This document shows positions 20,701-21,387 of a stretch of DNA of 42,788 nt, in pieces; the stretch's first letter is position 1, and each line of letters begins with the position of its first letter. The DNA is from Candidatus Woesearchaeota archaeon. GTDB taxonomy: Archaea > Nanobdellota > Nanobdellia > Pacearchaeales > GW2011-AR1. A program made the translations under genes and the position numbers. The notes under the pieces are model-generated. The model was not told where the DNA came from. It searched no databases and worked only from the letters and a program-made list of their open reading frames with translations. Where the stretch lies: the NCBI GenBank assembly GCA_964395405.1, contig CAYNAV010000001.1, forward strand, positions 1 to 42,788, written 5' to 3'.

Positions 20701-21220
20701 ATTCCTCCTGTGGAACCTTTACTAATCTTTCTCTAATCTCTGAAGGGAATAGTCTTCTTTTCCCAGCCCTAAATGTCGCTGGTTTTTCAAGTTTAACTCT
20801 TTCCTGAATGATACCACAATGCGGACACTTCTTGCCATCTTTTGATTTTTTTATTCTAGTTTTTAAATCCTTATCTCTGTCTTTTGCATCAAGTAAAACT
20901 TTCCCACAGGCTTCGCATGTATGCCTTAAAATTAAATCGATTACTTGTAGATATTTAATATGTAAAACTGGCCTAGCCAATTCAATTATCCCCGAATGTC
21001 CTAAACACTCCTTTAATCTTCCACCACATGTTCTACATCTTACACCCGGGTCTATAGCTCCTAGTCTTAAATCCATTAAACCACCATCAACTGGATAACC
21101 ATCGATATCATATAATTCAGGCGTAACTATCTTTGCAACTCCAACTTTTTTAATCTGCTCAGGACTGAACAAACTGAATTTGATTGCATTAACTTGTTTT
21201 TTTATTGGTTTAATTGTCAT
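17795..21220 (-). CDS. rpoA: DNA-directed RNA polymerase subunit A, A' and A'' fused in one 1141-aa ORF
   Basis: N-terminal zinc motifs ([14 protein letters not shown]). Catalytic [10 protein letters not shown] at 19901-19930. Bridge-helix block [22 protein letters not shown]. Without any stop it continues ...[47 protein letters not shown] (the trigger-loop start of A'') through to the A'' C-terminus. Confidence 0.93.
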   Translation of the reverse strand: [1141 protein letters not shown]

Positions 21221-21387
21221 TGTTTACTTCCCTCACTTAATCCACGATATGCTTCTTCTCGTGTTAGTTCACTTGGATGCCTATCAACTCTTCTTTGATT
21301 ATAAGCCATTGTTCTTTCTATTAAAGTAATTACTACTCTTCCTTCTCTTTTCATTCTTTCATCCTCGCTTAATCTAGCATTATTCAT
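21217..21387 (-). CDS. small ORF (56 aa from ATG 21387, or 45 aa from ATG 21354) bridging rpoB and rpoA
   Basis: Hand translation gives MNNARLSEDERMKREGRVVITLIERTMAYNQRRVDRHPSELTREEAYRGLSEGSKQ. The first ATG lies inside the last rpoB codons. The second ATG is preceded by GAGGA. Its TGA overlaps the rpoA ATG (ATGA). It is below the track length cutoff. Confidence 0.5.
   Translation of the reverse strand: MNNARLSEDERMKREGRVVITLIERTMAYNQRRVDRHPSELTREEAYRGLSEGSKQ

What the first reader, a model, noticed from the sequence alone, without database searches (positions are those of the whole stretch)
21217..21387. Small ORF fills the rpoB-rpoA junction and overlaps both polymerase genes
The 160-nt gap between rpoB and rpoA is not empty. 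One frame is open from an ATG inside the last rpoB codons (21387) to a TGA that overlaps the rpoA ATG (ATGA at 21220-21217). A second in-frame ATG at 21354 is preceded by GAGGA. The product is MNNARLSEDERMKREGRVVITLIERTMAYNQRRVDRHPSELTREEAYRGLSEGSKQ (56 aa, or 45 aa from the second ATG). It contains no Cys, so it is not RpoP or RpoN. The overlap geometry suggests an rpoB - small ORF - rpoA translational relay. In the archaeal rpoH-B-A operons I know, no gene is described at this position. It could be a small RNAP-associated subunit or assembly factor. The segment GRVVITLIERTMAYNQRR is only vaguely reminiscent of the RpoK/omega helix, and I do not claim homology. It could also be a purely regulatory coupling ORF.
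Basis: seen in the sequence. Interest (0 to 1): 0.6.

Follow-up and report, generated by a model that had tools for sequence, protein, structure and literature searches.

The report
Orphan bridging gene between rpoB and rpoA
A 56-codon gene found in only this one species was recently inserted between the two largest RNA polymerase genes of a tiny DPANN archaeon. It is one example of a junction that many relatives fill with unrelated small genes, so it is probably a translated bridge or passenger and not a polymerase subunit.

Summary
A 56-codon frame (21387..21217, minus strand) fills the 159-nt gap between rpoB and a fused rpoA'/A'' gene. Its ATG overlaps the rpoB stop and its TGA overlaps the rpoA ATG.

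It is unlikely to be a chance frame. Only 0.43% of shuffles keep that frame open, and its codon usage is typical of this genome's genes.

It is a complete orphan. An exhaustive HMMER search of 1.84 billion proteins, a six-frame search of 400 genomes of the same order, and viral and metagenome scans found only the ORF itself. All four nearest relatives have rpoB and rpoA abutting (TAA-A-ATG), so the 159 nt is a terminal-branch insertion. That rules out a conserved RNAP subunit.

The junction is a hotspot. In 72 related genomes, 27 carry gaps of at least 90 nt. Twenty-six of these are at least 66% covered by same-strand ORFs, and nearly all of those ORFs are mutually unrelated.

The tight junctions never have a Shine-Dalgarno sequence before rpoA, so I infer that rpoA depends on termination-reinitiation. 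On that reading the inserted ORF keeps the ribosome relay intact and also supplies a GAGGG before rpoA.

The peptide is Arg/Glu-rich and predicted helical. Whether it has a function of its own is untested. No expression data could be obtained.

The parts
24631..24858 (-). rpoH (Rpb5 C-terminal domain), the first gene of the operon. Its stop overlaps the rpoB start by 1 nt.
   Evidence: Pfam PF01191, E 1.1e-16; ORF list
21380..24631 (-). rpoB, unsplit, 1083 aa. It ends ...KNKYE* (TAT GAA TAA), and this C-terminal end is conserved in relatives.
   Evidence: Pfam Rpb2 domains 1-7 and NCBIfam PRK08565; junction alignments
21221..21379 (-). The 159-nt lineage-specific insertion between the rpoB stop and the rpoA ATG. 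It is absent from the nearest relatives, which have TAA-A-ATG here.
   Evidence: Junction survey and tree
21217..21387 (-). Orphan ORF of 56 aa, MNNARLSEDERMKREGRVVITLIERTMAYNQRRVDRHPSELTREEAYRGLSEGSKQ. It is Arg/Glu-rich and predicted as helix 8-36 plus helix 43-52.
   Evidence: frame; codon usage; AF2, pLDDT 82; composition; no homologues
21385..21387 (-). First candidate start ATG, 8 nt inside rpoB (ATGAATAA). This ATG exists because of the conserved rpoB terminal codons TAT-GAA.
   Evidence: the same ATG is seen in relatives' rpoB ends
21352..21366 (-). Alternative start: GAGGA (21366-21362), a 7-nt spacer, then ATG (21354-21352), giving a 45-aa product.
   Evidence: The 16S 3' end is GGATCACCTCCT. 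5-mer SD motifs precede 16% of genes against 6% of control positions.
21230..21234 (-). GAGGG, an SD-like motif for rpoA, 9 nt before its ATG. It lies inside the last codons of the small ORF.
   Evidence: SD-like motifs occur before rpoA in 0 of 36 tight junctions and 9 of 27 filled junctions.
21217..21220 (-). ATGA: the stop of the small ORF overlaps the rpoA start (the -4 geometry of termination-reinitiation).
   Evidence: PMC6728339 and PMC10666635 for the mechanism
17795..21220 (-). rpoA, a fused A'+A'' gene of 1141 aa.
   Evidence: Pfam Rpb1 domains 1-5; NCBIfam rpoA1 plus rpoA2 in one frame. Relatives have open frames of 1133-1203 aa.

Best explanation
The segment is a young, species-specific 159-nt insertion at the rpoB|rpoA junction of a Pacearchaeota/Woesearchaeota-type DPANN archaeon. 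It carries one translated small gene of 56 aa from the ATG that overlaps the rpoB stop, or 45 aa from the SD-led second ATG.

In this group rpoA normally starts 0-8 nt after the rpoB stop and has no Shine-Dalgarno sequence. Its translation therefore probably depends on ribosomes that have just finished rpoB (termination-reinitiation).

An insertion here is tolerated when it is itself read by those ribosomes and hands them on. This ORF does so: it starts at the rpoB stop and ends in ATGA on the rpoA start. It also places a GAGGG 9 nt before the rpoA ATG.

The product is an Arg/Glu-rich helical mini-protein with no relatives. It is a guest of the operon (a bridge ORF or passenger gene), not a core polymerase subunit.

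Shown: the geometry, the coding-like statistics, the orphan status, the absence from the nearest relatives, and the hotspot behaviour of the junction. Inferred: that the ORF is translated, that rpoA depends on coupling, and that the peptide has little or no selected function of its own.
For: 1. The frame is open, and its boundaries coincide with the neighbours' stop and start.
2. Chance is unlikely: 0.43% of shuffles keep the frame open. The codon-usage score is at the 44th percentile of real genes, against 0.9% and 2% for stop-free controls.
3. There is no RNA-level alternative: no Rfam family, fold z-score -0.33, and no terminator-like or sigma-70-type promoter-like site.
4. The insertion is recent. 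On a tree of RpoB-C plus RpoA-N the window is sister to a tight-junction genome (support 95). It lies inside a four-genome clade whose other members are all tight (support 99). G003 is tight as well.
5. It is an orphan.
6. The junction is a hotspot. Among 72 related genomes, 36 junctions are tight, 9 have gaps of 42-78 nt and 27 have gaps of 90 nt or more. Twenty-six of the 27 are 66-100% covered (24 of them at least 87%) by same-strand ORFs that begin within about -16..+19 nt of the rpoB stop and mostly end within about 30 nt of the rpoA ATG. A second, partly overlapping sample gave 20 long gaps among 69 junctions, 17 of them tiled.
7. The slot state needs at least 16 changes on the tree.
8. 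Fifty slot ORFs fall into 42 clusters, and none resembles this one.
9. None of 36 tight junctions has an SD-like motif before rpoA.
10. Published experiments show coupling is lost at about 20 nt of spacing (PMC10666635).
11. -4 and -1 overlaps are the rule in this window's operons.
Against: No sequence variation is available: 23 metagenome contigs are identical across the ORF, so selection on the frame or the peptide cannot be measured.

Coupling is not an absolute requirement in this group. Nine of 72 relatives have 42-78-nt gaps that mostly lack a convincing ORF and mostly lack an SD, and one has a 157-nt gap with no sense ORF. rpoA can therefore be started in other ways, for example from an internal promoter as a leaderless mRNA.

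Tiling of long gaps by ORFs is also what one expects if whole genes are what gets inserted, so it does not by itself prove a 'must stay translated' constraint.

The strongly Arg-rich composition (10 R in 56 residues; P = 0.0012 in proteome windows) could point to a selected nucleic-acid-binding function.
Confidence: 0.72

Rival explanations
1. The peptide is a genuine lineage-specific partner of RNA polymerase. It would be a small accessory subunit, assembly factor or regulator made from the same mRNA and binding RpoB/RpoA.
For: The position lies between the two largest subunit genes, and tight coupling would give co-translation and matched dosage. Overlapping pairs are enriched for subunits of complexes (PMC10666635). 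The fold is confidently predicted as a helical hairpin (pLDDT 82). The composition is Arg-rich.
Against: It is absent from all four closest relatives, which share 81-87% identical RpoA N-termini. There is no homologue in 1.84 billion proteins or in 400 genomes of the order. Other genomes carry more than 40 unrelated proteins in the same slot, one of them a plain tRNA-binding-domain protein. There is no Pfam hit to Rpb6, Rpo13 or RHH at E<=10, and RpoK is encoded elsewhere. Foldseek gave nothing at E<=0.001.
Confidence: 0.1
2. It is a cargo gene with a selected function of its own that is unrelated to the polymerase, for example an Arg-rich nucleic-acid-binding or conflict-related mini-protein. 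It would have been delivered as a small cassette into a highly expressed operon, and bridging would be only a condition of residence.
For: Real genes do land in this slot: a tRNA_bind domain protein with E 1.4e-15. Some slot ORFs are shared between species or genera (L079/L080 with dN/dS about 0.4; L045_1/L111_1; the L017 family). Cassettes are bounded by repeated TAAAATG-type junctions. The extreme Arg content is not typical of the proteome.
Against: For this ORF there is no homologue, no donor, no paralogue, and no PHROG or PDB match. One shared slot ORF pair evolves with dN about equal to dS and with equal changes at all three codon positions. That pattern argues that at least some slot ORFs are under no amino-acid constraint.
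Confidence: 0.2
3. The frame is a chance ORF in an untranslated spacer. The 159 nt would act at the DNA or RNA level, for example as an internal promoter or leader for rpoA, or would be inert.
For: The ORF is short and has no homologues. Relatives show that 42-78-nt gaps that mostly lack a convincing ORF are tolerated at this junction. The tract is purine-rich.
Against: The open frame is improbable (0.43% for this frame; 2.45% for any frame) and has gene-like codon usage. Both ends coincide exactly with the neighbouring stop and start. There is no RNA family, no excess structure, and no sigma-70-type promoter-like or terminator-like site; the promoter scan does not cover archaeal promoters. 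In relatives, 26 of 27 gaps of 90 nt or more are at least 66% covered by sense ORFs, while antisense frames are not open.
Confidence: 0.07

Closest known systems
Translationally coupled overlapping gene pairs using termination-reinitiation (ATGA / TAATG; Huber et al. 2019 PMC6728339, 2023 PMC10666635)
   Same: The stop and start overlap by 4 nt at the ORF-rpoA boundary, and the start sits at the upstream gene's stop at the rpoB-ORF boundary. The genes are co-directional within one operon of complex subunits. The ancestral rpoB|rpoA junction has 0-8 nt spacing and no SD.
   Different: Here the coupled middle gene is a species-specific orphan, not a subunit of the complex. The upstream overlap is 8 nt, not 1 or 4. 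Coupling itself was not measured.
Variable small-gene slot at the rpoB|rpoA junction of DPANN archaea
   Same: The junction and the pattern are the same: unrelated small orphan ORFs, tight boundaries, and presence or absence differing between close relatives. I reproduced this for this order with my own survey.
   Different: This ORF is unrelated in sequence to every other slot ORF seen. It is among the shortest, and it uses overlaps at both ends where the usual junction is TAAAATG.
Horizontal-transfer hotspots flanked by conserved core genes, and integron-type cassette arrays (from my own knowledge)
   Same: One chromosomal position between highly conserved genes repeatedly acquires and loses different small genes. 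Sometimes there are two in tandem, separated by a repeated short junction motif.
   Different: No integrase, attC-like repeat or other recombination site was found. The slot lies inside an essential operon and all cargo is co-oriented. For this ORF no donor or second copy exists.
Lineage-restricted small archaeal RNAP subunits (Rpo13 of Sulfolobales, Rpo8/RpoG) and Rpo6/RpoK (from my own knowledge for Rpo13 and Rpo8)
   Same: It is a small, helical protein restricted to one lineage and encoded near polymerase genes.
   Different: There is no sequence match. It is not conserved even within the family, and RpoK is present elsewhere. No evidence of binding exists.

Membership tests
Rpo6 / RpoK / omega (Pfam PF01192) | Sequence match to the Rpb6 profile | tested here: not met
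   hmmscan of the 56-aa and 45-aa forms at E<=10 gave no PF01192 hit. A bona fide PF01192 gene lies elsewhere in the genome (C5:4311-4469, 32.8 bits).
Ribbon-helix-helix (RHH) DNA-binding proteins | An N-terminal beta-strand followed by two helices, and a match to RHH profiles | tested here: not met
   No RHH family was found in Pfam at E<=10. The AF2 model has no strand, and residues 8-36, including RVVITL, form one helix. This was a single-sequence model, so the structural half of the test is weak.
Rpo13 / other lineage-specific RNAP subunits | Sequence homology to the known subunit, and conservation across the lineage that carries it | tested here: not met
   There is no Pfam or PDB sequence hit. 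The ORF is absent from the four nearest relatives and from 400 genomes of the order.
Rpo13 / other lineage-specific RNAP subunits | Physical association with RNA polymerase | not testable with these tools
   This needs purification of RNAP or a multimer structure prediction. Only monomer prediction was available.
Termination-reinitiation coupled gene pair | Co-directional genes whose stop and start overlap or lie within a few nt | tested here: met
   ATGA at 21220-21217. The ORF's ATG lies 8 nt inside rpoB. rpoH/rpoB overlap by 1 nt.
Termination-reinitiation coupled gene pair | Translation of the downstream gene depends on translation of the upstream one | not testable with these tools
   This needs a reporter assay or ribosome profiling. 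Indirect support: 0 of 36 tight junctions have an SD before rpoA.
Variable rpoB|rpoA slot genes of DPANN | A same-strand small ORF filling a lineage-specific insertion exactly between the rpoB stop and the rpoA start, absent from close relatives | tested here: met
   blastn-short and tblastn of the insertion against the 1.0-Mb assembly found only the locus itself. The assembly is 89% complete.

The most novel reading that the evidence does not exclude
The rpoB|rpoA junction of Pacearchaeota/Woesearchaeota-type archaea may be a dedicated cassette site. Short genes bounded by TAAAATG-like junctions would be gained, lost without a scar and exchanged between species. Their hypervariable products, including this Arg-rich helical peptide, would be made stoichiometrically with RpoB and RpoA and act on the polymerase or its transcripts, for instance in conflicts with viruses or hosts. 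This would be a polymerase-linked diversity locus with no described counterpart.
Probability: 0.07. Interest if true: 0.8.

Novelty: new member of a known kind. Interest (0 to 1): 0.38.

Why it matters
On its own, the ORF is a small orphan gene of unknown function and does not change what is known about archaeal RNA polymerase.

Its context is more informative. The boundary between the two catalytic subunit genes is usually taken to be one of the most conserved operon junctions in archaea. In these reduced genomes it turns over very fast, with at least 16 state changes among 72 genomes and more than 40 unrelated ORF families.

That makes it a natural system for two questions. The first is how new small genes arise or settle in prokaryotes. 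The second is how strictly downstream cistrons depend on translational coupling when Shine-Dalgarno sites are absent.

It is also a practical warning for annotation. A small gene lying between rpoB and rpoA should not be named a polymerase subunit on position alone.

Tried and rejected
- Homology searches all returned nothing but the ORF itself. These were Pfam at E<=10, NCBIfam, PHROGs, PDB sequences, the word-indexed 5.8-billion protein search, the exhaustive phmmer search of 1.84 billion representatives, the six-frame search of 400 genomes of the order, and the viral and metagenome contig scans.
- No source of the inserted DNA was found: no paralogue or second copy in the genome.
- Population genetics was not possible. 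All contigs carrying the ORF are identical across it. The one divergent contig (L036) differs only in a chimeric-looking last 180 nt inside rpoA.
- The fold search of the AF2 model gave only non-significant helical-hairpin hits, best E 4.5.
- RNA-level readings (Rfam, folding z-score, promoter and terminator scans) were negative.
- A read-through or frameshift extension of RpoB was considered. rpoB and rpoA are in the same frame (159 = 53x3), but that frame has stops immediately after TAA, and the ORF is in the +1 frame. Nothing suggests a programmed shift.
- A target-site duplication at the insertion ends was looked for. Only AATG and AAGTA recur at both ends, which is within chance for this A-rich sequence.
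- Literature searches for a described gene at this position found none.
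Full report
**1. The observation**

On the minus strand the window carries, in order:
- rpoH (24858..24631)
- an unsplit rpoB (24631..21380, 1083 aa)
- a 56-codon ORF (21387..21217)
- a fused rpoA'+A'' gene (21220..17795, 1141 aa)
- an L30e-like gene
- a NusA-KH gene

Its ATG sits in the final rpoB codons (TAT GAA TAA), and its TGA shares three bases with the rpoA ATG (ATGA). 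A second in-frame ATG at 21354 follows GAGGA by 7 nt. The untranslated gap would be 159 nt.

**2. Chance or gene?**

- Only 2.45% of shuffles of the gap contain an open run as long as this in any frame.
- Only 0.43% keep this particular frame stop-free.
- I built a codon table from 720 long ORFs of the same genome. With it the ORF scores 0.325 bits per codon. Real-gene windows average 0.344 (sd 0.125), so the ORF sits at the 44th percentile.
- Only 0.9% of stop-free off-frame windows and 2% of stop-free shuffles of the ORF itself reach that score.
- There is no Rfam match, no excess RNA structure (z = -0.33), and no terminator-like or sigma-70-type promoter-like site. The promoter scan does not cover archaeal promoters.
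- The genome's 16S rRNA ends in GGATCACCTCCT. SD-like 5-mers precede 16% of genes against 6% of control positions, so the SD is used but by a minority of genes.

I conclude that the frame is very probably translated.

**3. Relatives of the protein**

There are none. The following returned only the ORF itself:
- Pfam (even at E<=10), NCBIfam, PHROGs and PDB sequences
- the word-indexed search of 5.8 billion clusters
- an exhaustive phmmer search of 1.84 billion representatives
- a six-frame search of 400 genomes of the same order
- scans of viral and metagenome contigs

The genome holds no paralogue and no second copy of the DNA. The ORF occurs on 23 metagenome contigs from several samples, but these are identical across it. 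The single divergent contig differs only in a chimeric-looking end inside rpoA. No test of selection is therefore possible.

AlphaFold2 without an alignment predicts a long helix (residues 8-36) and a short helix (43-52) with mean pLDDT 82. Foldseek against the PDB found nothing significant.

The peptide is unusually Arg-rich. It has 10 Arg and 2 Lys in 56 residues, in a proteome with 4.1% Arg and 9.8% Lys. Only 0.12% of proteome windows reach 10 Arg.

**4. The junction in related genomes**

Record titles of the relatives name Woesearchaeota, Pacearchaeota or Nanoarchaeota MAGs. The own assembly is 1.0 Mb, 33% GC and 89% complete.

I extracted the rpoB|rpoA junction from 49 genomes of the same family and order, and from 23 further species of one well-sampled genus. 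Of the 72 junctions:
- 36 have the rpoB stop and rpoA ATG -8 to +20 nt apart, most often TAA-A-ATG.
- 9 have gaps of 42-78 nt.
- 27 have gaps of 90-769 nt.

All four closest relatives of the window are tight: G019, G016 and G029 with gaps of 1-5 nt, and G003. On a maximum-likelihood tree of RpoB-C plus RpoA-N, the window is sister to a tight genome (SH-aLRT 95). It lies inside a four-member clade whose other members are all tight (support 99). The 159 nt is therefore an insertion on the terminal branch.

**5. The junction is a hotspot**

- Of the 27 long gaps, 26 are 66-100% covered (24 of them at least 87%) by one to three same-strand ORFs. These ORFs begin within about -16..+19 nt of the rpoB stop and mostly end within about 30 nt of the rpoA ATG. 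Antisense frames are not open. The exception is a 157-nt gap in G043.
- A second, partly overlapping sample of 69 junctions from GTDB species genomes gave 41 tight, 8 intermediate and 20 long gaps, with 17 of the long gaps tiled to at least 85%.
- One of those genomes has a gap of exactly 159 nt, but it carries an unrelated ORF.
- Fifty slot ORFs of at least 40 aa fall into 42 similarity clusters. None resembles the window's ORF; the best E-value is 0.88.
- Of 20 slot proteins of relatives scanned against Pfam, only one belongs to a known family. It is a tRNA_bind domain protein, E 1.4e-15.
- The filled or empty state needs at least 16 changes on the 72-tip tree, with at least 8 forced by well-supported branches.
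- Two species with nearly identical polymerase sequences (L017 and L075) differ by a 321-nt cassette. The junction TAAATAAAAAATG is preserved, and a 7-nt AAAAATG repeat lies on both sides of the cassette. This is compatible with scarless gain or loss.

Earlier, unchecked notes of this scan describe the same slot in other DPANN genomes, and a similar slot between rpl3 and rpl4 of this genome. My survey is an independent reproduction for this order.

**6. Are slot ORFs under selection?**

Two pairs of species share a slot ORF.
- In L079/L080 the ORF has dN 0.133 and dS 0.316, against dN 0.011 and dS 0.22 in the flanking polymerase genes. This is weak purifying selection at best.
- In L081/L084 the ORF has dN 0.20 and dS 0.20, with changes spread equally over the three codon positions (10, 10, 11). 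The flanks have dS 0.76-0.90.

So at least some slot ORFs are kept open with little constraint on the amino-acid sequence. The low dS of the second pair suggests either recent exchange of the cassette or constraint at the nucleotide level. The counts are small, and this evidence concerns relatives, not the window's ORF.

**7. Mechanism**

None of the 36 tight junctions has an SD-like 4-mer within -18..-4 of the rpoA ATG. In this window's operons, -4 and -1 overlaps are the rule. Huber et al. showed in an archaeon and in E. coli that downstream genes of such pairs are translated by termination-reinitiation, and that about 20 nt of untranslated spacing nearly abolishes this (PMC6728339; PMC10666635).

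The simplest reading follows. rpoA is ancestrally started by ribosomes finishing rpoB. An insertion at the junction survives when it is itself translated from the rpoB stop and ends on the rpoA start.

The window's ORF does exactly this. In addition it provides GAGGG 9 nt before the rpoA ATG, as do 9 of 27 filled slots in total.

Which start is used is open. The ATG at 21387 exists because of the conserved rpoB end (TAT-GAA) and would be reached by back-stepping 7 nt after termination. The ATG at 21354 has its own SD.

There are limits to this reading. Nine relatives tolerate 42-78-nt gaps that mostly lack a convincing ORF, and one tolerates a 157-nt gap with no sense ORF. Coupling is therefore not obligatory, and internal promoters giving leaderless rpoA mRNAs are possible. 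Tiling of long gaps is also what gene-sized insertions would give in any compact genome.

**8. What it is not**

- It is not RpoK. There is no PF01192 match, and a real RpoK gene lies elsewhere in the genome.
- It is not RpoP, RpoN or Spt4, because it has no Cys.
- It is not an RHH protein. There is no profile match and no predicted strand.
- It is not a conserved polymerase subunit, because it is absent from the nearest relatives.
- It is not a copy of a repeated mobile element in this genome.

**9. Verdict**

The 'RNAP subunit' half is not supported.

The ORF is one more unique occupant of a fast-turning small-gene slot inside the RNA polymerase operon of these DPANN archaea. On its own it is of modest interest. 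The slot phenomenon appears undescribed in the papers I could search and is the part worth following up.

Noticed in passing
L002 / L093 (G003, contig CAZYXM010000029.1), first 60 nt upstream of rpoA: Relative to its neighbour G016, a 1-nt deletion in the last rpoB codons puts rpoB and rpoA in one continuous frame (...ELKNNTINKMKPVKKQ...). This would be an rpoB-rpoA gene fusion, or an assembly error. The contig ends 58 nt upstream, so it cannot be verified.
   Followed up: partly
window 17795-21220 and relatives: rpoA is a single fused A'+A'' gene here. Nearly all ~50 full-length matches among 57 related genomes have open frames of 1133-1203 aa, so the fusion is a trait of the whole order.
   Followed up: partly
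L026 (G031), slot between rpoB and rpoA: The slot holds a 112-aa tRNA_bind (Trbp111/CsaA-like) domain protein, Pfam E 1.4e-15. It is the only slot protein of 20 from relatives that were scanned to match a known family.
   Followed up: partly
L055 (G043), 157-nt gap: This is the only long gap without a sense ORF. The antisense strand is open over 156 nt. What it holds is unexplained.
   Followed up: no
L009 (G035), 64-nt gap: The gap ends with AAATACGAATAAAATG, a near copy of the rpoB end plus junction (AAATACGAATGAAAATG). This suggests a duplication of the junction during an insertion or deletion event.
   Followed up: no
L081 vs L084 (genus g24), shared 59-aa four-Cys slot ORF: dN and dS are both about 0.20, with equal changes at all codon positions, yet the flanking genes have dS 0.76-0.90. 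The cassette is either about 4 times younger than the species split (exchange) or is constrained at the nucleotide level.
   Followed up: partly
L017 (G023) vs L075 (G138): The polymerase sequences are nearly identical, yet one genome has a 321-nt cassette (a 101-aa ORF) and the other has a 7-nt gap. AAAAATG flanks the cassette on both sides, which is compatible with scarless loss by microhomology.
   Followed up: partly
Several slot ORFs (L042_0, L045_0, L077_1, L079_0/L080_0, L081_1/L084_0, L101_1, L107_1, L116_0): Many slot proteins carry four or more cysteines in CxxC-like spacing, so they may be small zinc-binding proteins. They are mutually unrelated by BLAST.
   Followed up: no
L036 (ENA ERZ27248922 contig), last ~180 nt: All 45 mismatches to the window cluster at the contig end inside rpoA (window ~20294-20121). 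This looks like a chimeric join with a related strain.
   Followed up: partly
L111_1 (a close relative, 85% RpoA N-terminus) and L045_1 (G020, different genus): Homologous slot ORFs occur in distantly related genomes while nearer relatives lack them. This hints that cassettes move between lineages.
   Followed up: no
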